Positions 10,240 to 37,594 of a DNA stretch of 39,508 nucleotides are shown in pieces. The stretch comes from Escherichia phage RDN8.1. The stretch is from the sequence record MN414250.1, one strand, 5' to 3'. The notes under the pieces are model-generated. The model saw only the letters and a program-made list of their open reading frames with translations, searched no databases and was not told the origin of the DNA. Position numbers and translations under genes: made by a program. Each line of letters opens with the position of its first letter. Position 1 is the stretch's first letter.

Positions 10240-10692
10240 GTGGCTGCATGGACACCAAAACGGGGGCACTCTGTGGGTGCCTACCGCTCTGGACTTGAAG
10301 CCAAGAACCAGCAGTGGCTGGAACAGAACGGCGTCAAAGCGGAGTACGAAAGCCATTATATCAACTATGTGATTCCGGCTTCCGACCACAAGTACACACC
10401 AGACTTCATCCTTCCGAACGGAATCATCGTCGAGACCAAAGGTATCTTCGACAGTGAGGACCGTAAGAAGCATATGCTGGTGCGCGAGCAGCACCCTGAG
10501 CTGGACATCCGGTTCGTGTTCTCGTCCTCCCGCTCCAAGCTGTACAAAGGGTCCCCGACCACGTATGGCGCATGGTGCGAAAAGAACGGCTTTAAGTTTG
10601 CCGACAAGTTTATCCCGGTTGAGTGGCTGAAAGAGGCGACTGTACGTCTGCCCTCAGGTATACTCATCCCAAAGAAAGGAGTTAAGAAATGA
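10240..10692 (+). CDS. Endonuclease I / Holliday-junction resolvase (T7 gp3 homologue), GTG start
   Basis: VGAYRSGLE, YTPDFILPNGIIVETKG, REQHPELDIRFVFSSSRSKLYKGSPT match recalled T7 gp3. Confidence 0.9.
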   Translation: MAAWTPKRGHSVGAYRSGLEAKNQQWLEQNGVKAEYESHYINYVIPASDHKYTPDFILPNGIIVETKGIFDSEDRKKHMLVREQHPELDIRFVFSSSRSKLYKGSPTTYGAWCEKNGFKFADKFIPVEWLKEATVRLPSGILIPKKGVKK

Positions 10693-11141
10693 CTCGTAAA
10701 GCAATCATAGTTGACCTGACGTATGGTGGTGCATATTCAGACAACTTCAAGGTAGGACAGGAGGTCTTCGTTAAGTTCTCCCATAAGTCCCTCAGCCCTA
10801 GTGATGGAGACCTGTGGCGTGTGTCGCACGATGGTGTCAAGTGGCTGGACACAATGTATGGTCGCCGCCTGAAGTTTATCGCTTCTGGTGAGAAACCTCA
10901 AGTCCTGCCAGCTTCGAGCGTACCGCCTGTGACTGTGAAGCGTGAAGTCCTGACCATCGACAAGATTGGAGTGGGCCAGACGTTCATCGTTCATGGAAAG
11001 CCTGAAGAAGTGTACGTGAAGATTAGTAACTCACACGTCTTCAACCATAAGCGCCTCCAGATGCACGCTACGGACGCACAGCGCTTCACCCAACACCTGA
11101 ATCTCGTAATCGTTGAGCTGGTGGTGTACAATGGTAAGTAA
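10689..11141 (+). CDS. Hypothetical protein, 150 aa, inserted between endonuclease I and lysozyme
   Basis: ATG with AAAGGAG RBS; overlaps neighbours by a few nt; T7 has genes 3 and 3.5 adjacent. Confidence 0.6.
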   Translation: MTRKAIIVDLTYGGAYSDNFKVGQEVFVKFSHKSLSPSDGDLWRVSHDGVKWLDTMYGRRLKFIASGEKPQVLPASSVPPVTVKREVLTIDKIGVGQTFIVHGKPEEVYVKISNSHVFNHKRLQMHATDAQRFTQHLNLVIVELVVYNGK

Positions 11142-11589
11142 GGTTCAGTTCAAACCGCGTACAGTAACTGACGCAATCTTCGTCCACTGTAGTGCGACCC
11201 AGCCGTCTCAGGACATCGGGGTAGACACTATCCGCATGTGGCACAAGCAGCAGGGCTGGCTGGACGTAGGCTACCACTTCGTCATCAAGCGAGATGGCAC
11301 TGTGGAAGAGGGTCGCCCGGTCGATGTAGTAGGGTCCCACGTTAAGGATTGGAACTCCCGGTCCGTAGGCGTCTGCCTTGTTGGTGGAATCGACGCTAAG
11401 GGCAAGTTTGAAGCCAACTTCACGCCTGCTCAGATGAACGCTCTACGAAACAAGCTGGCTGAACTTAAGGCCCTGTATCCTCAGGCAGACATCAAGGCTC
11501 ACCACGACGTAGCACCAAAGGCCTGCCCAAGTTTTGACTTGCAGCGCTGGCTGAACACTAACGAAATGGTCACTTCCGACCGAGGCTAA
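11131..11589 (+). CDS. Lysozyme / N-acetylmuramoyl-L-alanine amidase (T7 gp3.5 homologue)
   Basis: VQFKPRTVTDAIFVHCSAT, GWLDVGYHFVIKRDGTVE, AHHDVAPKACPSFDL, C-terminal VTSDRG match recalled T7 lysozyme. Confidence 0.93.
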   Translation: MVSKVQFKPRTVTDAIFVHCSATQPSQDIGVDTIRMWHKQQGWLDVGYHFVIKRDGTVEEGRPVDVVGSHVKDWNSRSVGVCLVGGIDAKGKFEANFTPAQMNALRNKLAELKALYPQADIKAHHDVAPKACPSFDLQRWLNTNEMVTSDRG

Positions 11590-26804: not shown

Positions 26805-27266
26805 ATGTATATTCGTAAGGCTACTGAACAGGACGTAAGGTCCTTTGAAATCGCTATAGATGACATTAACGAGCTGATGGCGCATGACCCACGGAGAGAC
26901 CTTAAGTCTGTCCTGCTGTCTCACCTCACTCCGTCATCTGTGGTTTTGGTCGATGCTCTTGGGACCGTGTACGCCTATGGTGGAAACCAAGGGGATAACG
27001 TATGGTTCCTGACTTCACGTCTGGTCTCCCGGCTGTCAAAGGCTGAGAAGCGAGAGTTCGGTCATCACATTGCATCGTACAGAGACTTAATGTTAGACCA
27101 GTTCCCAGTCCTTTGGAATTACGTCTGGTCGGGCAACAAGTCTCACATTAGGTTTCTCAAGTTGTTGGGCGCTAAGTTTCACCCTGAGGTGACTATCAGC
27201 CCGGTGACTGGGGAGAGATTCCAACTATTCACTATCTCTAAGGAGGACGTATGTGCGAACCCGTGA
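26805..27266 (+). CDS. Internal virion protein A (gp13-like), by synteny
   Basis: 153 aa ORF after AGGAGA, between gp12 and gp14 homologues. Confidence 0.55.
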   Translation: MYIRKATEQDVRSFEIAIDDINELMAHDPRRDLKSVLLSHLTPSSVVLVDALGTVYAYGGNQGDNVWFLTSRLVSRLSKAEKREFGHHIASYRDLMLDQFPVLWNYVWSGNKSHIRFLKLLGAKFHPEVTISPVTGERFQLFTISKEDVCANP

Positions 27267-27838
27267 GCATTGGTATGGGTATCATGGCTGTGGCGGGTGC
27301 CACTATGTCCGCTTCAAGTCAGGCCAAGGCCGAAGGTGCAGCGATTGACGCTCAGAACCGACAGGCTCAGGAAATGATTAAGCAGATGAACTACTCTGAC
27401 GCTAACCTGAAGATGCAGGAGCGAGACCTTAAGGAACAGCAGGTCGCTGAACTGACTGAGACGACCCTTAACGGTATTCGCAATCAGGGCATGGTCCGAG
27501 CAGCAGTCGCTGAGTCTGGGCTTGAAGGCAACTCCATGAACCGCATTGAGCGAGAAGTAGAGGGTCAGACTGTGAAAGAGCGGGCTGGCATCACCGAGAG
27601 TTACAACCGTGACTACGCGGCTATCTTCGGCAACCGCATCGCCAACATTGAGAACACCAAGTCTGCCATCAAAGGTCAGCAGAAGATTATCAAGACCAGC
27701 CCTCTGGCTCATGCACTTAACGTCGCGTCTGCTGGTATGCAGGGGTACGCTGCTGGTAGTTCTATCGCCGGGGCTAAGCCTTCGGGCGGTGCAGCTCCAA
27801 TCAGTGCCGCTAAAGGCACACCTACAGGTCATAGCTAA
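27251..27838 (+). CDS. Internal virion protein B (T7 gp14 homologue)
   Basis: 195 aa; MC N-terminus, Gln/Ala-rich, EGNSMNRI, NYRRDY blocks resemble recalled T7 gp14. Confidence 0.8.
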   Translation: MCEPVSIGMGIMAVAGATMSASSQAKAEGAAIDAQNRQAQEMIKQMNYSDANLKMQERDLKEQQVAELTETTLNGIRNQGMVRAAVAESGLEGNSMNRIEREVEGQTVKERAGITESYNRDYAAIFGNRIANIENTKSAIKGQQKIIKTSPLAHALNVASAGMQGYAAGSSIAGAKPSGGAAPISAAKGTPTGHS

Positions 27839-27849
27839 CAGGAGGACCA

Positions 27850-30132
27850 ATGGCTAGTAATATCGAATCAGCTTTAGCTAACCGGACTATGGGCCGTGGT
27901 CGCGCTCCGGGCAAGACTATTAGTCTGGACTATCAGGCGGCTAACGTTCAGGGGCAGACTGGGGACTCTGGTCTCGCTCGTGCGTTAACCAACTTCGTGG
28001 AATCAGGAGCTGGCGTCTACAAGCAGTTTCAGGAGAAGGCCAAGAACCTCGGAGACGAACGGTCTAACGAGATTATCCGCAAGCTGACTCCTCAGCAGCG
28101 ACGAGATGCTATCCAGAACGGGACCCTGCTTTATCAGGATGACCCATACGCTATGGAGGCACTCCGAGTCAAGACTGGTCGTAATGCTGCCTATGCGGTG
28201 GACGATGAGATTAACGTCAAGATTCAGAACGGTGAGTTCCGTACCCGTCAGGACATGGAGGAGTACCGCCACCAGCGACTCCAAGATGCCGCTAAGTCTT
28301 ACGCTGAGGAAGCCGGGATTAACCCGAACGATGAACACTTCCAGCGAGGCTTTAACGCTGACATCACCGACCGCAACGTAGCCATCTATGGGTCGTTCAA
28401 TAAGTATTTCTCTAAGCAGTCAGAGAATACCGCTATGCTGAACACCCGCGTGGAGCTTAACTCGTTCCTGAACGATGGGGACCTGATGCGCTCAACTGAG
28501 GCTGGTAAATCCTTCATGGGATACATCCGTGATGGGCTAACCACCGCTGCCATTCCGTCCGACCAAAGGGCTACTGAGGTCATCACTCAGACGGTGCGGG
28601 ACGCTATCCAGAAGTCCGGTGGCTCTAACTTCCTACAGCAGATTCGCAATGAGCGCATCACACTTAATGGTGTGGACGCTACGGTCGAGGAGATTGTGGG
28701 ACCTGAGGTCTTCAACGCTTCGTTGATTGAGGCCCAAAGCACTGAGTACAAGCTGGTGGCTAAGTATCAGGAAGACTTGTCTTTAGGCGTTCAGTCTGCG
28801 ATTCTTCAGGATGACCCGACCATCGGTCTGGCCCAGATTCAGAAACTCAAGGAGCAGAACAACCTGCTTCAACCGGGAGAAGAACTCACGCCTCAGCGTC
28901 AGATGCTTATTAATGCCGAAGCCAGCTTACTGGAAGCGGTCAAGCGTAAGTCCGCTGAACAGGCGAAGGAGAACACTAAGCTCATCCAGACGCAGAACAA
29001 GCAACTGGTCATTGACCAAGTGTATCAGCGCCGACTGGCTGGGGACAACGTGTCCACCAACTATGAGGACCTCCCTGTCTCTGCGGCTACAGGCGAGTTT
29101 AAGCGTTCGGACATGAACAACTACGCTATGGGTAAACTCCAACAGATTGACCAGATGGACATCCCTGAGGCTGCTAAAGACGCTCAGAAGGTGGCATTGT
29201 TAAGAGCTGACACTAACAACGGTCCGTTCCGTAATGCCTTCCAGACTCTAACTCAGGACGCTGCTGGAGAGTGGCAAGCTGCGGTCATCCGTGGACAGTA
29301 CGACCCAGACAAGATGCAACGCTTCGAGTCTCTTCGTCGTGCCTACACTCAGGACCCTTCAAGTTTTGCTGCCCTGTATCCTGACCAAGCTCAGCTATTC
29401 TCTACGTTCGACCAGATGGGCAAGATGGGTCTGGACCCTCAGACGATGATTGAAGCTGATAAGCAAGCTGCAAGTCAAAGCCGTGAGATGCGCATGGAGT
29501 CAGACAAGGCGTGGCAGGAGTTGAAGAACGACTCCAAGAACATCCAGTTGTCTCGCCTCCCAACGTCTCTGGACTCAAGTGCTCGTAAGGTCTGGGACTC
29601 ATGGTACTATCGTACAGGGAACGCTGACGCTGCAACTCAGCAGACTCAACGCTGGCTTAACGAGAACACCGTAACGTTCCAGTCTGAAGGTTCTGACGGT
29701 AAGTCAATCGGCATGGTGTCCAAGCACCAGCTTATGGTCGGGGATAACCCAGAGTCGTGGCAGGTGGGTCGAGACATTATCGACACCGCTCGTCAGCAAC
29801 TCATTAAGGCTAACCCTTGGGTAGTGAACTCTCAGTTGTCCGTTGTTGAACAGAACGGCTCTATCTTCCTCCAAGACGCTACAGGTACTATTCGTATTCG
29901 CTACGATAAGGAACTTGTAGGTAAACTCTACCGCGAACAACAGCAGAAGGCACAAGATGCCGCATATGCTCAGGCAGAACGTGACGCTAACAAGCGAGCG
30001 CGTATCGTCGGGACTAAAGCTGATGGCGACAAACGTCGAGCTGACCGAGAGGCCAACATCGATAAGCGTGGTGGTATGTACAATGACGTCTCACTGGAGG
30101 GTATCGCAAACGTACTAATCGGTAAGGAGTAA
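27850..30132 (+). CDS. Internal virion protein C (gp15-like)
   Basis: 760 aa after AGGAGG; size and position match T7 gp15 (747 aa). Confidence 0.85.
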   Translation: MASNIESALANRTMGRGRAPGKTISLDYQAANVQGQTGDSGLARALTNFVESGAGVYKQFQEKAKNLGDERSNEIIRKLTPQQRRDAIQNGTLLYQDDPYAMEALRVKTGRNAAYAVDDEINVKIQNGEFRTRQDMEEYRHQRLQDAAKSYAEEAGINPNDEHFQRGFNADITDRNVAIYGSFNKYFSKQSENTAMLNTRVELNSFLNDGDLMRSTEAGKSFMGYIRDGLTTAAIPSDQRATEVITQTVRDAIQKSGGSNFLQQIRNERITLNGVDATVEEIVGPEVFNASLIEAQSTEYKLVAKYQEDLSLGVQSAILQDDPTIGLAQIQKLKEQNNLLQPGEELTPQRQMLINAEASLLEAVKRKSAEQAKENTKLIQTQNKQLVIDQVYQRRLAGDNVSTNYEDLPVSAATGEFKRSDMNNYAMGKLQQIDQMDIPEAAKDAQKVALLRADTNNGPFRNAFQTLTQDAAGEWQAAVIRGQYDPDKMQRFESLRRAYTQDPSSFAALYPDQAQLFSTFDQMGKMGLDPQTMIEADKQAASQSREMRMESDKAWQELKNDSKNIQLSRLPTSLDSSARKVWDSWYYRTGNADAATQQTQRWLNENTVTFQSEGSDGKSIGMVSKHQLMVGDNPESWQVGRDIIDTARQQLIKANPWVVNSQLSVVEQNGSIFLQDATGTIRIRYDKELVGKLYREQQQKAQDAAYAQAERDANKRARIVGTKADGDKRRADREANIDKRGGMYNDVSLEGIANVLIGKE

Positions 30133-30136
30133 CATA

Positions 30137-33100
30137 ATGGCGACTCGTGGTATTCGCAATAACAATCCGGGTAATATCCGGGTAAGTAAGGACCAATGGG
30201 AAGGGATGACTGGAGATGATGGCGCATTCGTCACCTTCGATAGTCCAGAGTCTGGCGTCCGAGCTTTGGGTAAAAACCTGCTGTCCTACGGTCGCCAAGG
30301 TTATGACTCCATCGAGAAGATTATCAACCGATGGGCTCCTCCTAACGAGAACGACACTCAGGCTTATATTGACTCAGTGGTGGCTGCGACTGGTATTCCA
30401 GCTACACAGAGTCTCGACCTCTCGAACCCGGACACCCTGTCTTCTCTGGCGCAAGCTATCAGCTTCCATGAGACAGGCTCCCGGTACGACCCTGAAGTCT
30501 ATCAGCAGGGAGTCGCAAGAGCACTCAACGGTATCAGCCCAAAGACTCCACCAGTAAGCGCTAACGTATTTGACGCACTCACGGAAGGACTCAAGGCTAA
30601 ACCTAAAGTAGCTCTGGGTGAGAACCTTCCGACCGCTGCTGGTCTGAACATTGAGGGTCAAGCACCTGAAGCTCCCAACGAATCGTTCGGTGAGATGTTC
30701 TATAAGGCTACTGGCGAGACCATGCAGGAACGAGAGGACCGCTCTACGTGGTTCGGTTTCGGTGCGGCTACAGAAGCTGAAGTGAAGAACTCTATGGTCG
30801 GCGTGGCTATCCGCGCTGGTCAGACTGAGGACTCACTGGATGTCATTGGCGATGTGTTCAACCCAACCAGATGGAACAACCATAAGTGGTCTCGTGAGGA
30901 GCTGGACCAGATTCGTAACGCTGGGGTTCTGCCTCAGTATTACGGAGTCATTACTGGTGGCTCTCCTCAAAACCTGACCGAGCTTATTAACTTGGCGCTT
31001 GAGAACCAGAAGTTGGACCAAGAGAAGGCCAAGGCCGGGACTGGTGCTCAGTTAGCTGCTGGTGTGATTGGAGCTGGTGTGGACCCTCTGACATACGTTC
31101 CTATTGCTGGACAGGCTGGTAAGGGCGGTAAGCTGGTAAACAAGATGTTCACCGTGGCTGCTCAATCTGGAGCACTGGCTGGTGTGTCTGAGATGGCCCG
31201 TACCTCAGTGGCGGGTGGTGACGCTCATGTGGCTGAAGCTATCCTTGGTGGTGCTCTCTTCGGTGGTGGCATGACTGCTATCGCTGACGGTCTAGGAAGA
31301 GCCTTAGGTCGCAACACTAACGAGTTTGCTGGCCCCGCTACACGTCTGGAAGCGCGTGAGACTGCTCGTAACGTTGATGGTCAGGACCTGTCTCGTCTAC
31401 CTATTCAGGAAGGCGAGCAGACCTTCAGTCATCAAGGTGTTAAGTTCGCAGACGTTCCGAACGAGCCGGGCAGTGTACGACTGGAAGATGGTTCAATCCT
31501 GATTGGTGAGAACCCTCTGAACCCTAAGACACGTCAAGTCTTTGACGAAGTGATTGAGCCTGAACGTGCCGCTGCTGGTGTGAACCTTGGTGGACTTACC
31601 GAGATTGGCCTGAAGCTGCTTCGGTCTGAGAACCCTGAGATTCGTGGAGTAGCTGCTGACTTAGTACGTTCACCGACTGGTATGCAGTCTGGGGCCTCAG
31701 GTAAAATAGGGACAACTGCGTCGGACGTATTCGAGAGACTTCGTGCTGTGGACCATCGGTTCTACAACGACATCGACGATGCGGTTACTGAGGCACTAAA
31801 GGACCCGTACTTCCAGACAGCATTCTGGCGAGACTCTGGCGCATTCCGTCAGGACATCTACCAGCGTGTGTCTATGGCTATCGAAGATGGTAGCGGAAAC
31901 CTGAAGGCTGAACTTACTCCGGGAGAACTGAAAGTCTATGACCTACTGAAGAGCCAGTTTGACGCCAAGCGTGAGATGATGGAGAACCCAGCTATGTTTG
32001 GTCGTCCAGACGCTAAGTCTATCTTTCCGGGTAGCCGCTTCAAGGGAACCTACGTCCCTCATGTGTATAGCAAACAGATGAAGGAGCTGTATATCAATGA
32101 GCTGGGGAATCCAGAGGCGTTGCAGGAGGCCATCAAGAAGTCATGGTTGACCAGCTATGCGTCTCGACCTGAAGTCAAGAAACGCGTGGACGAGGCACTC
32201 TTAGAGGCTGACCCTACGTTGACTCCAGAGGGACTTGCTGCTGCGGTCGATAAATACGCAAACGATAAGGCTTACGGTATCTCTCACACCGAGCAGTTCG
32301 AACGTTCATCCGTAATGGAAGAGAACATCAACGGTCTGGTTGGTCTGGAGAACAACAGCTTCCTTGAGGCTCGTAACCTGTTCGATAGCGATATGTCAAT
32401 CGTCCTGCCTAACGGTCAGACCTTCAGTGTCAACAACCTGCGTGAGTGGGACATGGACAAGATTGTCCCGGCCTACAACCGTCGAGTTAATGGCGATATT
32501 GCTATCATGGCTGGTACAGGCAAAACCACGAAGGACATGAAGGACTTGGTTGAGACCATGATGAACAAGGCTGGGGATGACGGCAAGTTGAAAGGTGAGG
32601 TCTCGACCTTACGTGACACCTTGAAGATTCTCACTGGTCGTGCTAGACGTGATGGTGCTGACGATGCAGCCTTAGCTACTGTTATGCGCACAATGACGGA
32701 CCTATCGTTCTTCGCTAAGAATGCCTACATGGGTGTTCAGAACTTAACGGAGATTGGGGGTATGCTGGCCCGTGGTAACGTCCGGGCGATGCTGCACGGA
32801 ATCCCGATGTTCAGAGACCTAGCCTTCCGCAACAAGAAGGTGGGAGCCTCTGAGATTAAGGACCTGCATAACGTGGTCTTCGGTAAGGAACTTGACGACT
32901 CTATCCGTCCGTCTAAACAGGATGTCATTGACCGCCTTCGAGCGTACAGCGACCTGAGTAAACCAGTAGCTACCGCTTTAGGTTCCGCCAAGTATTACAC
33001 TGGGGAACTTGCGGTCCGCTCTCCGTTTACGAAGGTCCTGAACGGGACGACTAACTACCTGCTGGATGCTGGACGTCAAGGCTTCCTGTCTGACATCGTG

Positions 33101-34024
33101 GAGCACAGCCTGACCGGAAGTAAGCGTAAGTTTGATGACCGCTGGTTGAAGACCGCTGGTATCTCCGATGACCAATGGAAGGGCATCAAGTCCCTCATCC
33201 GTGAGTCAGTGACTCGTGGTCCAGACGGGAAGTACACCATCAAGGATAAGAAGGCGTTCAGTCAGGACCCAAGGGCTATGGACCTCTGGCGTATGGGTGA
33301 CACCATCGCTGATGAGACCCTGCTACGTCCGCACAAGCTGAGCAACATGGATGCCAAATCGTATGGCCCGGTGGCAAAGACTGTTCTTCAGTTCAAGAAC
33401 TTCGTTATCAAGTCCATCAACGGTCGAACCATGCGTACATTCTACAATGCTACCAAGAACAACCGGGCGATTGATGCTGCGTTATCCACGGTTATGTCTA
33501 TGGGCCTTGCTGGGGTGTACTATATGGCTCAGGCGCACATCAAGGCTTACGCGATGCAGGATGGTCGAGACAAGGAGTATCTGAAGCAAGCCCTCAACCC
33601 GACGATGATTGGCTATGCGGCCCTGTCCCGTAGCTCTCACCTCGGTGGGCCTCTTGGGGTCGCCAACATTCTGGGTGGAATCGCTGGGTATGAGGACACT
33701 AAGTTGCTCCGTTCGTCTATCCTCCCGCGTTCACCTACTGAGAAGCCTGAACGTGCCATTACCTATGGTGCTGCTAAGAGCGACCCGGTGATGAACGTGG
33801 TGGGGAACTTCCTTGAGCAGGTCCCGGCCTTTGGCTACGCTGCTAACGTCGGGGCTTCGGCTTATAACTTGGCTGGATACCTCAAGGCTGATACCCGTGT
33901 GAGCGAGCGGGACTACATGACCGGGATGTATAACACCTTCCGTGAGCTGGTCCCGAACGACCCGATTACTCAGAAGCTGCTGCTTGGAACCTTTGAGGAA
34001 CAGGGTATTCACATCAAAGACTAA
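30137..34024 (+). CDS. Internal virion protein D (T7 gp16 homologue) with non-T7 N-terminal domain of about 130 aa
   Basis: 1295 aa; from about residue 190 long blocks match recalled T7 gp16 (VRSPTGMQSGASGK, AYGISH..QF..SS..EENI.GLVG.ENNSFLEARNLFDSD, DAALS...SMGLAG); N-terminus (GIRNNNPGNIR...FHETGSRYD) does not. Confidence 0.92.
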   Translation: MATRGIRNNNPGNIRVSKDQWEGMTGDDGAFVTFDSPESGVRALGKNLLSYGRQGYDSIEKIINRWAPPNENDTQAYIDSVVAATGIPATQSLDLSNPDTLSSLAQAISFHETGSRYDPEVYQQGVARALNGISPKTPPVSANVFDALTEGLKAKPKVALGENLPTAAGLNIEGQAPEAPNESFGEMFYKATGETMQEREDRSTWFGFGAATEAEVKNSMVGVAIRAGQTEDSLDVIGDVFNPTRWNNHKWSREELDQIRNAGVLPQYYGVITGGSPQNLTELINLALENQKLDQEKAKAGTGAQLAAGVIGAGVDPLTYVPIAGQAGKGGKLVNKMFTVAAQSGALAGVSEMARTSVAGGDAHVAEAILGGALFGGGMTAIADGLGRALGRNTNEFAGPATRLEARETARNVDGQDLSRLPIQEGEQTFSHQGVKFADVPNEPGSVRLEDGSILIGENPLNPKTRQVFDEVIEPERAAAGVNLGGLTEIGLKLLRSENPEIRGVAADLVRSPTGMQSGASGKIGTTASDVFERLRAVDHRFYNDIDDAVTEALKDPYFQTAFWRDSGAFRQDIYQRVSMAIEDGSGNLKAELTPGELKVYDLLKSQFDAKREMMENPAMFGRPDAKSIFPGSRFKGTYVPHVYSKQMKELYINELGNPEALQEAIKKSWLTSYASRPEVKKRVDEALLEADPTLTPEGLAAAVDKYANDKAYGISHTEQFERSSVMEENINGLVGLENNSFLEARNLFDSDMSIVLPNGQTFSVNNLREWDMDKIVPAYNRRVNGDIAIMAGTGKTTKDMKDLVETMMNKAGDDGKLKGEVSTLRDTLKILTGRARRDGADDAALATVMRTMTDLSFFAKNAYMGVQNLTEIGGMLARGNVRAMLHGIPMFRDLAFRNKKVGASEIKDLHNVVFGKELDDSIRPSKQDVIDRLRAYSDLSKPVATALGSAKYYTGELAVRSPFTKVLNGTTNYLLDAGRQGFLSDIVEHSLTGSKRKFDDRWLKTAGISDDQWKGIKSLIRESVTRGPDGKYTIKDKKAFSQDPRAMDLWRMGDTIADETLLRPHKLSNMDAKSYGPVAKTVLQFKNFVIKSINGRTMRTFYNATKNNRAIDAALSTVMSMGLAGVYYMAQAHIKAYAMQDGRDKEYLKQALNPTMIGYAALSRSSHLGGPLGVANILGGIAGYEDTKLLRSSILPRSPTEKPERAITYGAAKSDPVMNVVGNFLEQVPAFGYAANVGASAYNLAGYLKADTRVSERDYMTGMYNTFRELVPNDPITQKLLLGTFEEQGIHIKD

Positions 34025-34084: not shown

Positions 34085-36559
34085 ATGGCAGACAACAAGA
34101 CCCTCATCAAGTATCCCACTGGTGAGACACAATATCGTATTCCATTCGATTACCTCGCAAGGTCTTTCGTAAAGGTAAGCCTTGAGGTCTCCACCGACTC
34201 CACTCTTAGTTATCCGCTGACACCGGGTAATGACTATCGGTTCCTGAATGCCACTACCATTGAAATCCTCATTCCGCAGGGTTCCTATGATGTGCTGCAA
34301 ATTCGTCGATTCACTGACACTACTCCTCTGGTCGGATTCCGCGATGGCTCAGTGCTGACAGCTAACGACCTTACAGTCTCTGAGCTTCAGGCAATCCATA
34401 TCGCAGAAGAAGGCCGTGACCAAACGTTAGAGCTGACCGAGAGCTACGTTGAGACTGCTGCTAATATCCGCGACGAAGTTAAGGAGATGCTGGAGGAAAT
34501 GCGGGATGACTTAATCATTCAGCGTGTGTATAAGGATAGCTTTGAGAAGGGTCAGACACTCAACCTTCCCGGCGAGTCCCTGCGACTGGAAGCTACTAAC
34601 ATCTACTATGAGTGGACGGGTAGCTTCCCTAAAGTAGTACCTGCTGGCTCTACACCTGATACGACTGGTGGTGTGACTGCTGGTGCGTGGCGTATGGTAG
34701 GTAACAGCAATATGGAAGCGTTCATGCTCAGTGGGTCTTACCATGTGTTCTCAACCATAGATGACCTGAAGTCCCTTAAGATTAACCCTTCGGTGACAGT
34801 CAACATGCAGGTAGGCTCCAGAGCGATGACCCTTAAGCTGGTTCAGGCAGCTGGTAAGTTCTACAACAAGCGTGTCTACTGGGACATAGTTGCAGCGGAA
34901 AACCCGAACACGTTGAGCGTTCAGCTTGTTAATGGGCTGTGGGCTGCCATGGTAGTGGAAGACGAGCTGTACCCTGCGGTCTTTGGATGGGGCGAGAAGG
35001 ATGACCCTGCTGCTAATGCCGCTGCTTACCATAGAGCATGTGCTGTGGCTGAGGCAAACCCTAACGTCCACACCATTCGTCTACACGCTGGCGCCTTCCG
35101 CAGTGATGGTATAGTGGCTCAGGTTGCACGTAGACGCTTCCGGTTCACTGGGGCTGGCTGGGATAATACCTTTATCCTCTCTGAGTCCTCTGACATCTCG
35201 TTCCACCACAAAGGGTTCAACGAGTCTAACCCAGCACTGGACAAGCGATACTTCCAGCAGATTGTCGATGGCTTCACCGTAGACGGTCAGATGGGTACAC
35301 GTAAAGTCCAAGCCGCTCAACGTACACTCTCCACAGTCCACTACGCCGAGCTTGGCTATAAGTCTGTAAACCATAGGGTGTCACAGGTGGATATTTGTGG
35401 ACTAGTTGTCAAGTGGTACGGTATGACTGGTGCTGGTGTGTATGACGGTGTGTGGTCACAGCATGGCCTACGAGTACGCTACAACTCTATCAAGCTGAAT
35501 GGCTATATTGGTGGAGCGCCTAATCAAATCAACACCATGATTGGTGGCTTCCGTACCAAGCTTATAGCCCCTGCTAAGGCTGGTGACACCACGATTCAGG
35601 TAGAGAACCTGCGCAACGGTCAGACCTACGACATCCTAGAGGTTGGCGGTGGTACACTTGAGGCTCCACGCATAAAGTCAAGAACAGGGAACACCATCAC
35701 ACTGTTCGCCCCTCTGGAGTACGACCACACGGTTAACGCAGTGGTTAGACTTCCGGTTGTTGGGACTGAGGTTCAGGGTACTCTTGAGGTTGGTATCATC
35801 TACATTGCTGACGCTGAGGCTACAACCGTTCATGGCATCTACTCAGAGGAATCTAAGTTCTACCTTTCTGGACTTCTTCAAGGTTGTGAGATTCACGGCA
35901 ACAGTATTGCGGAAGCAAACCCTACTGTACAGGTTGACTCTAACGTAGACCCTAGAAGTCACATCCGAATTGTGTCTAACAACACGTACTTCCCAGTGAC
36001 AATCGCAGTGGCCGATGAGACCGGAGCAGTAAACAACAGGCTTGACCTCAAGCGCTTCCCTAACATCGAGATTAAGGGCAACACACGCGCTCAGAACTCA
36101 ATCTGGGTAAATGGTGTATACTCCTTTAGTTCTCTCCGAGTATACCGAACGTATGACTCTGGGATGAGCGATGTGTCAATGACCACTATGGAATTCGACG
36201 GTCTATCTGCTCAGTTGGCTGGCGGAGCTGTAAGTGATGCCCTCCTGCTCGCATCGTTCCCAGCAACAAGGCCGTATAAATGGGATGGCTACACCTTTGA
36301 CCTTACGGCTACTTATCGTCGAGTTGGTAAGATGGGTGGCGGCACACTCAAACGTGCTGGTCACGCGCTAACCGATGGTACGACCCACGATGTGAACGTT
36401 CAACGCTACGTCTCAACTGGCAGTACTTGGTCTGAGGCTGGCGTAGACCTTCTGTTCGGTGCCACTGGTACCCGCGCGTCTGTTACTGCTCGAGGTGAGG
36501 CTAGTGGTGCTTGGCCTACGAGTATGTCAATCAGAGGTATCATCACCCACGCAAACTGA
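34085..36559 (+). CDS. Tail fibre / tailspike: T7 gp17-like N-terminal adaptor domain fused to a large non-T7 C-terminal domain (putative receptor-binding or polysaccharide-degrading domain)
   Basis: 824 aa; N-terminal about 150 aa (YRIPFDYLARSFVKV, FRDGSVLTANDL, LQAIHIAEEGRD) match recalled T7 gp17; remainder shows no T7 similarity. Confidence 0.88.
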   Translation: MADNKTLIKYPTGETQYRIPFDYLARSFVKVSLEVSTDSTLSYPLTPGNDYRFLNATTIEILIPQGSYDVLQIRRFTDTTPLVGFRDGSVLTANDLTVSELQAIHIAEEGRDQTLELTESYVETAANIRDEVKEMLEEMRDDLIIQRVYKDSFEKGQTLNLPGESLRLEATNIYYEWTGSFPKVVPAGSTPDTTGGVTAGAWRMVGNSNMEAFMLSGSYHVFSTIDDLKSLKINPSVTVNMQVGSRAMTLKLVQAAGKFYNKRVYWDIVAAENPNTLSVQLVNGLWAAMVVEDELYPAVFGWGEKDDPAANAAAYHRACAVAEANPNVHTIRLHAGAFRSDGIVAQVARRRFRFTGAGWDNTFILSESSDISFHHKGFNESNPALDKRYFQQIVDGFTVDGQMGTRKVQAAQRTLSTVHYAELGYKSVNHRVSQVDICGLVVKWYGMTGAGVYDGVWSQHGLRVRYNSIKLNGYIGGAPNQINTMIGGFRTKLIAPAKAGDTTIQVENLRNGQTYDILEVGGGTLEAPRIKSRTGNTITLFAPLEYDHTVNAVVRLPVVGTEVQGTLEVGIIYIADAEATTVHGIYSEESKFYLSGLLQGCEIHGNSIAEANPTVQVDSNVDPRSHIRIVSNNTYFPVTIAVADETGAVNNRLDLKRFPNIEIKGNTRAQNSIWVNGVYSFSSLRVYRTYDSGMSDVSMTTMEFDGLSAQLAGGAVSDALLLASFPATRPYKWDGYTFDLTATYRRVGKMGGGTLKRAGHALTDGTTHDVNVQRYVSTGSTWSEAGVDLLFGATGTRASVTARGEASGAWPTSMSIRGIITHAN

Positions 36560-37150: not shown

Positions 37151-37594
37151 ATGCTCGAACTTTTACGTAAAGCGCTCCCGTGGTTAGCGGCAGGACTCCT
37201 GTTCTGTTCAGGCTACTGGGTGGCAGACACAAAGTGGGAGGCGAAAGTAAGCAATGAGTACATCACTAAATTACAAGCAGAGGACAGAACGCGCACTTCG
37301 GTACAGCGAGAGGTGTCACGTATTGCAGCGGACTACCAAGACAAGCTGTCCGCGCTGGAAGGCTCTACTGATAGGATTATTGCTGACCTTAACCGCGATA
37401 ACAAGCGGTTGCGCATCAGAGTCCAACCTACCAGTGGAACGGTCCAAAGTGACGGTCGATGCGTCATTGATGGTTACGCCGACCTTGATGAGCGAGATGC
37501 TAAACGTCTTATCGCCATCGGACTGAAGGGCGACGAGTGGATTAAAGCCTTGCAGGGGACCATCAGGGCCTTGCAGCAGGAGAAGGAGAAATGA
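37151..37594 (+). CDS. Rz-like i-spanin (T7 gp18.5 homologue)
   Basis: 147 aa; N-terminal TM LPWLAAGLLF; EGSTDRIIADLNRDNKRLRIRV, DERDAKRLIA match recalled T7 Rz. Confidence 0.85.
   Translation: MLELLRKALPWLAAGLLFCSGYWVADTKWEAKVSNEYITKLQAEDRTRTSVQREVSRIAADYQDKLSALEGSTDRIIADLNRDNKRLRIRVQPTSGTVQSDGRCVIDGYADLDERDAKRLIAIGLKGDEWIKALQGTIRALQQEKEK
37254..37526 (+). CDS. Rz1-like o-spanin lipoprotein embedded in Rz in the +1 frame; start uncertain (possibly TTG about 37323)
   Basis: Embedded ORF with hydrophobic segment ALLIGLLLTLTAI and lipobox-like TSGC. Confidence 0.45.
   Translation: MSTSLNYKQRTERALRYSERCHVLQRTTKTSCPRWKALLIGLLLTLTAITSGCASESNLPVERSKVTVDASLMVTPTLMSEMLNVLSPSD

What the first reader, a model, noticed from the sequence alone, without database searches (positions are those of the whole stretch)
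30137..30550. Internal virion protein gp16 has a non-T7 N-terminal domain
From about residue 190 the protein aligns along its length to T7 gp16, but the first roughly 130 aa (GIRNNNPGNIR...FHETGSRYD) do not resemble the T7 N-terminal lytic transglycosylase domain. This suggests a domain swap to a different cell-wall-active or host-interaction module in the ejected core protein.
Basis: partly seen in the sequence, partly recalled or inferred. Interest (0 to 1): 0.5.

Follow-up and report, generated by a model that had tools for sequence, protein, structure and literature searches.

The report
K1F-type gp16 carries Enc34-type cell-wall hydrolase
In this T7-like phage, the large protein ejected into the host starts with a different, already characterised type of cell-wall-cutting domain in place of the T7 one; this is a clean module swap, shared by a whole phage genus and ordinary for these proteins.

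Summary
The window is a complete Kayfunavirus (K1F-like) genome, and 30137..34024 encodes gp16 (1295 aa).

- **Where T7 homology starts.** It begins at residue 125-132 (motif GISPK, matching T7 G159), not at about residue 190. That point is the published boundary between the T7 transglycosylase domain (1-156) and the "molecular tape" (157-228).
- **No similarity to the T7 domain.** Residues 1-131 show none: BLASTP E=3.3, no Pfam SLT hit, hhalign probability 0.4%.
- **Catalytic residues.** The proposed triad is conserved as W66/Y77/E112. dN/dS against K1F is 0.03.
- **Distribution.** About 220 of about 1280 phage records with a gp16 body carry this N-terminus. Most are Kayfunavirus; one Minipunavirus has it too. 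About 1040 records carry the SLT type, and Vibrio phage ICP3 has no enzyme domain.
- **Prior structure.** A 98% identical protein is already in the PDB (9vvp).

The most likely function is local cell-wall digestion during DNA ejection, probably as a glycosidase rather than a lytic transglycosylase. This is a known module in a known role, so interest is modest. The practical value is correcting the "lytic transglycosylase" annotations.

The parts
30137..34024 (+). Gene 16: internal virion (ejection) protein D, 1295 aa
   Evidence: ORF. Full-length match to phrog_342. About 98% identical to PDB 9vvp 'Gp29', described as core proteins of phage E1004. K1F gp16 is 98.4% identical over aa 1-125 and 95.9% over aa 200-1295.
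30124..30129 (+). Shine-Dalgarno AAGGAG, 7 nt upstream of the ATG, overlapping the last codons of gene 15
   Evidence: Sequence read.
30137..30529 (+). aa 1-131: Enc34-type (PHA02564 / PM2 P5) peptidoglycan hydrolase domain, occupying the position of the T7 SLT domain
30146..30181 (+). aa 4-15, RGIRNNNPGNIR: the signature N-terminal motif of the family
   Evidence: G5, R7, N8, N9, N10, N13 and R15 are invariant; R4, I6, P11, G12 and I14 are conserved in at least 90% of 40 aligned family members.
30332..30334 (+). W66 codon (RWAPP), equivalent to Enc34 Trp79
   Evidence: Alignments; residue roles from PMC8943055.
30365..30367 (+). Y77 codon, equivalent to Enc34 Tyr95
   Evidence: Invariant column; mapping.
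30470..30472 (+). E112 codon (FHETGS), the predicted catalytic glutamate, equivalent to Enc34 Glu131
   Evidence: Invariant column; mapping.
30530..30739 (+). aa 132-201: linker homologous to the T7 gp16 'molecular tape' (T7 157-228) that binds gp15 in the periplasmic tunnel
   Evidence: Alignment starts at GISPK / GITPK. 35% identity to T7. T7 domain limits from PMC8954989.
30740..34021 (+). aa 202-1295: conserved gp16 body
   Evidence: 55.6% identity to T7 gp16 over 1083 aligned positions. 1283 phage records carry it.
26805..30132 (+). Context: genes 13, 14 and 15 (internal virion proteins A, B, C) directly upstream
   Evidence: PHROGs 308, 805 and 1339.
11113..11589 (+). Context: gene 3.5-type N-acetylmuramoyl-L-alanine amidase, the phage's separate lysis enzyme
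   Evidence: Pfam Amidase_2, 2.8e-17. The start at 11113 is the mechanical TTG of the ORF listing; the true start was not determined. An Rz-like spanin lies at 37151..37594.

Best explanation
gp16 of this Kayfunavirus is a T7-type ejection protein whose N-terminal enzymatic module is an Enc34-endolysin-type (PHA02564 / PM2 P5) peptidoglycan hydrolase instead of the T7 SLT (GH23) lytic transglycosylase. The exchange lies exactly at the boundary between the catalytic domain and the gp15-binding linker.

Proposed mechanism (inferred by analogy with T7):
1. gp16 is packaged in the internal core.
2. After adsorption it is ejected through the tail behind gp14.
3. Its N-terminal domain locally cleaves the glycan strands of the murein, using E112 as the catalytic acid, with W66 and Y77 positioning the substrate.
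4. The gp15:gp16 tunnel can then cross the periplasm.
5. The conserved body then inserts into the inner membrane and brings in the DNA.

The enzyme is probably a hydrolytic glycosidase. The Enc34 authors propose N-acetylglucosaminidase for the family, not a 1,6-anhydro-forming lytic transglycosylase. Lysis at the end of infection is carried out by a separate amidase.
For: Shown here:
- Y77 and E112 are invariant and W66 nearly invariant across 40 family members, and they map to Enc34 Y95, E131 and W79.
- Strong purifying selection on the domain: dN/dS 0.03.
- No SLT similarity.
- Junction at window G132 / T7 G159.
- T7 synteny of genes 13-17.
- A separate amidase and spanin.
- The same domain recurs in head, ejection, tape-measure and 'tail injection transglycosylase' PHROGs and in large virion proteins.

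From the literature:
- The Enc34 domain lyses permeabilised E. coli, P. aeruginosa and Hafnia, and Glu131/Trp79/Tyr95 line its groove (PMC8943055).
- T7 gp16 1-156 is the periplasmic transglycosylase 'wing', 157-228 is the tape, and hydrolase modules move between ejection proteins (PMC8954989).
- The SH3 homologue was detected in virions by mass spectrometry (PMC4925675).
- PDB 9vvp places a 98% identical protein among the core proteins of phage E1004.
Against: - No enzymatic assay exists for this protein or any gp16 of this clade in the material I could search.
- Bond specificity is not established even for Enc34. M4Lys data suggested glucosaminidase plus endopeptidase activity (PMC8943055).
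- The Enc34 catalytic residues were assigned from structural superposition and conservation; the text I read reports no mutagenesis.
- The order of events and the location of the domain after ejection are extrapolated from T7.
- In T7 the hydrolase activity is dispensable under many conditions (PMC8954989, citing Moak & Molineux), so the contribution here may be conditional.
- The Foldseek alignment to 9vvp_W covers only 83 columns at 9.2 Å rmsd. The state of the domain inside the capsid is therefore unclear.
Confidence: 0.85

Rival explanations
1. The N-terminus is simply a highly diverged version of the T7 SLT lytic transglycosylase domain: same origin, drifted sequence.
For: It occupies the same position and has a similar size (131 aa against 156 aa). 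Both are helical lysozyme-like domains with a catalytic Glu. PMC8943055 argues for very distant common ancestry of Enc34-type enzymes with GH23 and GH73.
Against: - BLASTP E=3.3, no Pfam SLT hit, hhalign probability 0.4%.
- The catalytic Glu is near the C-terminal end of the domain (E112), whereas T7 has E37. This matches the permuted topology described for Enc34.
- The rest of the protein is 56% identical to T7, so drift alone cannot explain a domain with no similarity at all.
Confidence: 0.02
2. The domain is retained as a non-catalytic module, for example for peptidoglycan binding or core-stack packing, and does not cleave the wall.
For: No activity data exist for any gp16 of this clade. 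In the query the family's HENG motif reads HETG, and Morganella phage MP2 has Y in place of W66. Vibrio phage ICP3 manages without any N-terminal enzyme domain.
Against: E112 and Y77 are invariant, W66 is present in this protein, and the RGIRNNNPGNIR motif is intact. dN/dS of 0.03 is as low as in the essential body. The homologous Enc34 domain is enzymatically active (PMC8943055).
Confidence: 0.08
3. The domain acts mainly as a lysis enzyme late in infection (an endolysin fused to gp16) rather than during entry.
For: The best-characterised family members (Enc34 ORF39, M4Lys, Chivirus proteins) are endolysins (PMC8943055). PHROG names include 'endolysin'.
Against: - It is covalently part of a packaged core protein (9vvp; SH3 virion mass spectrometry in PMC4925675).
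- The phage has its own T7-type amidase and spanin.
- No signal sequence or transmembrane anchor precedes the domain; it starts at residue 2.
- The family is common inside virion and ejection proteins.
Confidence: 0.05

Closest known systems
Hafnia phage Enc34 endolysin ORF39 catalytic domain (PDB 7q47; PHA02564 family) and corticovirus PM2 protein P5
   Different: Enc34 ORF39 is a 26-kDa lysis protein with a C-terminal two-helix membrane anchor, encoded in a lysis cassette. Here the domain is the N-terminus of a 1295-aa packaged ejection protein and is presumed to act from outside at entry. The HENG motif reads HETG in the query.
T7 gp16 (internal virion protein D; PDB 7eyb, 7k5c, 6yt5)
   Same: Same gene position and operon, and the same overall architecture of enzyme domain, linker ('molecular tape') and large body. 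55.6% identity from residue 200 onward, and a presumed identical role in the ejectosome (PMC8954989).
   Different: T7 residues 1-156 are an SLT/GH23 lytic transglycosylase with catalytic E37. The window protein has an unrelated-by-sequence Enc34-type domain with its predicted catalytic Glu at 112.
Escherichia phage K1F gp16 (AAZ73000) and phage E1004 Gp29 (PDB 9vvp)
   Same: Essentially the same protein, 96-98% identical including the N-terminal domain. The trait is shared by about 220 phage records.
   Different: Only point differences, plus mosaic nucleotide identity of 76-100% along the gene. The tail spike next to it differs: K1F has an endosialidase, this phage does not.
Virion lysin modules of other podophage ejection proteins (SP6 gp36 and K1-5 gp38 lysozyme activity, phiKMV gp36, epsilon15-like SPC32H_016)
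   Same: The same principle: a peptidoglycan hydrolase module embedded in an ejected internal protein, with the module's type and position varying between lineages (PMC5380687, PMC8954989). The epsilon15-like proteins carry the closest non-Kayfunavirus copies of this very domain, at 55-59% identity.
   Different: Different carrier proteins and positions (mid-protein or C-terminal). For SP6/K1-5 and phiKMV the catalytic family is also different (lysozyme-type).

Membership tests
Enc34-type / PHA02564 / PM2-P5 peptidoglycan hydrolase domain | Significant sequence similarity to the Enc34 ORF39 catalytic domain | tested here: met
   phmmer E=1.1e-14, query residues 3-122 against 7q47 residues 7-139. 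A profile of 40 members finds 17,828 cluster representatives.
Enc34-type / PHA02564 / PM2-P5 peptidoglycan hydrolase domain | All-helical fold resembling the alpha-lobe of lysozyme (Enc34 topology) | tested here: met
Enc34-type / PHA02564 / PM2-P5 peptidoglycan hydrolase domain | Conserved Trp79 / Tyr95 / Glu131 signature | tested here: met
   W66, Y77 and E112 align to these residues. Y77 and E112 are invariant, and W66 is at least 90% conserved across 40 sequences.
Enc34-type / PHA02564 / PM2-P5 peptidoglycan hydrolase domain | Muralytic activity on Gram-negative peptidoglycan, and bond specificity | not testable with these tools
   Needs a zymogram or turbidity assay and muropeptide HPLC-MS. 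Activity has been shown for Enc34 only (PMC8943055).
SLT / GH23 lytic transglycosylase domain (T7 gp16 N-terminus) | Match to Pfam PF01464 (SLT) | tested here: not met
   T7 gp16 residues 1-210 score 5.6e-31. The window protein gives no hit even at E<=1.
SLT / GH23 lytic transglycosylase domain (T7 gp16 N-terminus) | Alignable catalytic Glu in the N-terminal E-S motif (T7 E37) | tested here: not met
   No alignment by BLASTP (E=3.3) or by hhalign of family profiles (probability 0.4%). E37 is invariant in six SLT-type gp16 proteins.
T7-type gp16 ejection protein (internal virion protein D) | Full-length homology of the post-enzymatic region, including the gp15-binding linker | tested here: met
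   phmmer alignment of 125-1294 to T7 152-1314. Body 55.6% and linker 35% identical. phrog_342 scores 1095 bits.
T7-type gp16 ejection protein (internal virion protein D) | Synteny: genes 13-14-15-16-17 | tested here: met
   PHROGs 308, 805 and 1339 upstream, and the T7 tail-fibre N-terminal domain downstream.
T7-type gp16 ejection protein (internal virion protein D) | Packaged in the virion core and ejected into the cell envelope | not testable with these tools
   Supported only through near-identical homologues: 9vvp 'core proteins of bacteriophage E1004' and SH3 virion mass spectrometry (PMC4925675).

The most novel reading that the evidence does not exclude
The choice of N-terminal module is adaptive, not neutral. 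An Enc34-type hydrolytic glycosidase (probably a glucosaminidase) would let gp16 cut murein that resists lytic transglycosylases, for example MurNAc O-acetylated peptidoglycan. Such peptidoglycan occurs in Morganella, Proteus and Providencia (my own knowledge, not tested here). Under this reading, the distribution of three states in Studiervirinae (SLT, Enc34-type, none) tracks host cell-wall chemistry or physiological state. The presence of the module in Morganella phage MP2 is suggestive. Its presence in E. coli and Salmonella Kayfunaviruses is not explained by this idea.
Probability: 0.1. Interest if true: 0.5.

Novelty: new member of a known kind. Interest (0 to 1): 0.25.

Why it matters
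- **Annotation.** Many GenBank records of this clade call the protein a 'peptidoglycan lytic (exo)transglycosylase' or 'membrane-bound lytic murein transglycosylase', by transfer from T7. The domain that justified that name is absent here. The correct description is an Enc34/PM2-P5-type peptidoglycan hydrolase.
- **Biology.** It adds a clean example of modular exchange of the wall-cutting module of podophage ejection proteins. The exchange is precise at the boundary with the gp15-binding 'molecular tape'. Three states occur within one subfamily: SLT, Enc34-type and none.
- **Experiment.** It offers a natural system to ask whether the bond specificity of the entry enzyme matters, using T7/K1F chimeras.
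- **Databases.** The family is large, with at least 12,000 50%-identity clusters at E<=1e-10, and had no Pfam or NCBIfam hit in the copies searched.

Tried and rejected
- Pfam and NCBIfam scans of residues 1-190 and of the full protein gave nothing useful. The only hit was a chance HCNGP match at E=0.16.
- Literature: I looked for a statement that K1F-type gp16 lacks the SLT motif. The K1F genome paper was not held under the DOI or the PMC id I tried from memory. No paper combines 'Enc34' with 'internal virion protein'. Searches for 9VVP and E1004 returned only unrelated papers. A gp29/gp16 cryo-EM search found other phages.
- Diverged SLT domain: considered and rejected.
- Lysis endolysin role: considered and rejected, because a separate amidase and spanin exist.
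- A nearly identical nucleotide stretch against K1F over the linker first looked like a special feature. A sliding-window comparison shows it is part of a general mosaic of 76-100% identity along the gene.
- The search for homologous proteins listed no full-length gp16-sized protein (longest listed hit 222 aa). The clade counts therefore come from tblastn against the phage collection.

Full report
**What the window is.** The 39.5-kb window is a complete T7-like genome. Megablast of gene 16 and of the left 25 kb finds Kayfunavirus (K1F-like) phages at about 90-93% identity. Gene order around the finding is the T7 order. Genes 13, 14 and 15 lie at 26805..30132 and match PHROGs 308, 805 and 1339. 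Gene 16 lies at 30137..34024. Gene 17 lies at 34085..36559, with a T7 tail-fibre N-terminal adaptor followed by a tail-spike domain. Gene 16 starts 7 nt after an AAGGAG that overlaps the end of gene 15.

**Checking the observation.** Against all PDB sequences, T7 gp16 aligns only to residues 125-1294, matching T7 152-1314. Three tests find no similarity between the N-termini:
- Direct BLASTP of the first 190 aa against the first 210 aa of T7 gp16 gives E=3.3.
- Pfam SLT hits T7 gp16 residues 15-127 at 5.6e-31 and does not hit the window protein at all.
- hhalign of a 40-sequence profile of the window's domain against a 6-sequence profile of SLT-type gp16 N-termini gives probability 0.4%.

The correction concerns the boundary. 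In a multiple alignment of six gp16 proteins, shared sequence begins at G132-ISPK, matching T7 G159-ITPK. Residues 132-199 are 35% identical to T7, and residues 200-1295 are 55.6% identical. The "about residue 190" in the finding is where conservation becomes obvious by eye, not where homology starts.

**What the domain is.**
- Sequence: residues 3-122 match the catalytic domain of the Hafnia phage Enc34 endolysin (PDB 7q47) with E=1.1e-14.
- PHROGs: the same stretch falls in families named endolysin, head protein, tape measure protein and 'tail injection transglycosylase'.
- Published function: the Enc34 paper shows the domain lyses permeabilised E. coli, P. aeruginosa and Hafnia. It describes an all-helical fold resembling the alpha-lobe of lysozyme, with a permuted helix order relative to GH23/GH73. 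It names Glu131, Trp79 and Tyr95 as the conserved catalytic signature (PMC8943055). The same family includes corticovirus PM2 protein P5 (PMC9502842).
- Catalytic residues: after allowing for the one-residue offset of the PDB chain, these residues align to E112, W66 and Y77 of the window protein. In the 40-sequence alignment E112 and Y77 are invariant and W66 is at least 90% conserved. The N-terminal RGIRNNNPGNIR motif is also conserved.
- Selection: against K1F the domain has 18 synonymous and 2 non-synonymous differences, giving dN/dS 0.03. This is at least as constrained as the body, at 0.055.

[quoted passage not shown] It gives residues 157-228 as a 'molecular tape' that cements gp15 subunits (PMC8954989). 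The junction mapped here (T7 G159, window G132) coincides with that boundary. The catalytic module has been exchanged as a unit, while the gp15-binding linker and everything downstream are retained.

**How widespread it is.**
- gp16 body: tblastn of residues 201-700 finds 1283 phage records. Identity is bimodal: 221 records at 80% or more, 1060 below 60%, and only 2 between.
- Enc34-type N-terminus: found at 80% identity or more in 218 records, including K1F itself at 98.4%.
- T7 SLT N-terminus: 1223 records match at E<=1e-3, and 1037 of them cover at least 80% of the query. Not all of these are gp16 proteins.
- I could not cross-match accession lists, but the counts and the sampled rows agree that the Enc34-type module is the trait of the Kayfunavirus clade.
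- It is not confined to that clade. Morganella phage MP2 (Minipunavirus) has the same type of N-terminus at 45% identity, on a body that is 50% identical to the window and 54% identical to T7.
- Vibrio phage ICP3 (Chatterjeevirus) has a 1127-aa gp16 with no N-terminal enzyme domain.

Three states therefore exist within Studiervirinae. With the data in hand I cannot tell whether this reflects an old polymorphism or repeated exchange.

**The domain as a mobile module.** A profile search of 1.84 billion cluster representatives finds 17,828 proteins at E<=1e-3 and 12,410 at E<=1e-10. None of the 120 listed close homologues carries a precomputed Pfam domain. Among the 80 best IMG/VR loci:
- In one locus the domain is the N-terminus of a gp16.
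- In 32 it is mid-protein, in 830-940-aa proteins in all but three cases.
- In 11 it is N-terminal in other long proteins, and in 6 it is C-terminal.
- In 31 it is a short stand-alone protein.
- Loci L046 and L048 carry it inside proteins of about 2400 aa.

One of the 830-940-aa mid-protein carriers (L013) matches phrog_992 'head protein' over its full length. The closest copies outside Kayfunavirus are 55-59% identical. They lie in epsilon15-like (Uetakevirus) phages of the same hosts, for example SPC32H_016. That is a 937-aa 'putative structural protein' in a gene cluster whose layout resembles an ejection-protein operon. The resemblance of that operon is my inference.

**Mechanism.** Shown: the domain's identity, its conserved active-site residues, its position at the free N-terminus of a T7-type ejection protein, and the presence of a separate lysis set. 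That set comprises an Amidase_2 protein at 11113..11589 and a spanin at 37151..37594. From near-identical homologues: the protein is in virions (SH3 mass spectrometry, PMC4925675) and in the internal core (PDB 9vvp, 'Core proteins of the bacteriophage E1004', four chains, released 2025-11-12).

Inferred by analogy with T7 (PMC8954989): after adsorption, gp14 opens the outer membrane. gp16 is then ejected, and its N-terminal domain digests murein locally. The linker tapes gp15 into a hexameric periplasmic tunnel, and the body inserts into the inner membrane. The chemistry is probably hydrolytic glycosidase activity. The Enc34 authors argue for N-acetylglucosaminidase, by analogy with GH73. This is not proven even for Enc34.

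**Rivals.**
- A drifted SLT domain is excluded by every comparison made.
- A non-catalytic remnant is unlikely, given the invariant Glu and Tyr and the low dN/dS. It cannot be excluded without an assay. HETG in place of the family's HENG, and Y for W in MP2, are minor departures.
- A role in lysis rather than entry is unlikely, because the domain is part of a packaged protein and the phage has its own amidase.

**Novelty.** The protein is about 96-98% identical to K1F gp16 (GenBank DQ111067) and to a protein with a deposited structure. The domain family has been characterised biochemically and structurally. Exchange of hydrolase modules among podophage ejection proteins is an established theme (PMC5380687, PMC8954989). 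What I did not find in the searchable literature is an explicit statement that Kayfunavirus gp16 carries an Enc34-type domain instead of SLT. Many database records still label it a lytic transglycosylase. I therefore file it as a new member of a known kind: a known module in a known role.

Noticed in passing
L003 2857-6240 (Vibrio phage ICP3, ON464736.2): The gp16 of this Chatterjeevirus is only 1127 aa and has no N-terminal peptidoglycan hydrolase domain. Its sequence joins the alignment within the linker region. This is a third state besides the SLT and Enc34-type N-termini.
   Followed up: partly
L004 4456-8385 (Morganella phage MP2, NC_031115.1): A second Studiervirinae genus (Minipunavirus) also has an Enc34-type gp16 N-terminus. 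It is 45% identical to the window's, with the Glu kept and W66 replaced by Y. Its body is no closer to Kayfunavirus (50%) than to T7 (54%). Either the module is old in the subfamily or it was exchanged more than once.
   Followed up: partly
Protein family of window 30137-30529: The Enc34/PM2-P5-type domain family is large: 17,828 50%-identity cluster representatives at E<=1e-3. It gave no Pfam-A or NCBIfam hit, and many members are named only 'structural protein'. One representative (P0121, 762 aa) matches the profile in four separate stretches, suggesting tandem copies.
   Followed up: no
L091 3900-6713 (Salmonella phage SPC32H_016) and IMG/VR loci L012-L045: The closest copies of the domain outside Kayfunavirus (55-59% identity) lie mid-protein in proteins mostly 830-940 aa long. 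L013 (862 aa) matches phrog_992 'head protein' over its full length; SPC32H_016 (937 aa) belongs to an epsilon15-like phage. These are probably ejection proteins of an unrelated podovirus group infecting the same hosts.
   Followed up: partly
L046 3153-10397, L048 3282-10397, L054 5001-9827, L055 688-5550: The same domain is embedded in very large virion proteins. In the two of about 2400 aa, L046 also matches DarB-like and a second endolysin-type PHROG. L054 and L055 (about 1610-1620 aa) carry it at the N-terminus; in L054 a phrog_11190 virion structural region follows. These may be further lineages of ejected multi-domain proteins.
   Followed up: partly
window 30137-34024 compared with K1F (L001 4501-8388): Nucleotide identity along gene 16 is strongly mosaic. 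It ranges from 76% (around aa 350-400) to 100% (aa 126-175) in 150-nt windows. This is consistent with patchwise homologous recombination among Kayfunaviruses.
   Followed up: partly
window 10689-11141 (+): A 150-aa ORF lies between endonuclease I (10240..10692) and the gp3.5-type amidase. It matches only PHROGs of unknown function (16385, 15211) and no Pfam family.
   Followed up: no
window 34085-36559 (+): The gp17 receptor-binding protein combines the T7 tail-fibre N-terminal adaptor (aa 13-115) with a Tail_spike_N (TSP1/Gp66) domain (aa 150-206) and an unassigned C-terminal part of about 600 aa. It is not the K1F endosialidase, so host specificity differs from K1F.
   Followed up: no
GenBank annotations of homologues: Product names for this gp16 clade are inconsistent. 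They include 'peptidoglycan lytic exotransglycosylase', 'peptidoglycan transglycosylase', 'endo-type membrane-bound chitopentaose' and 'core protein'. The transglycosylase names are probably wrong, because the SLT domain that justified them is absent.
   Followed up: yes
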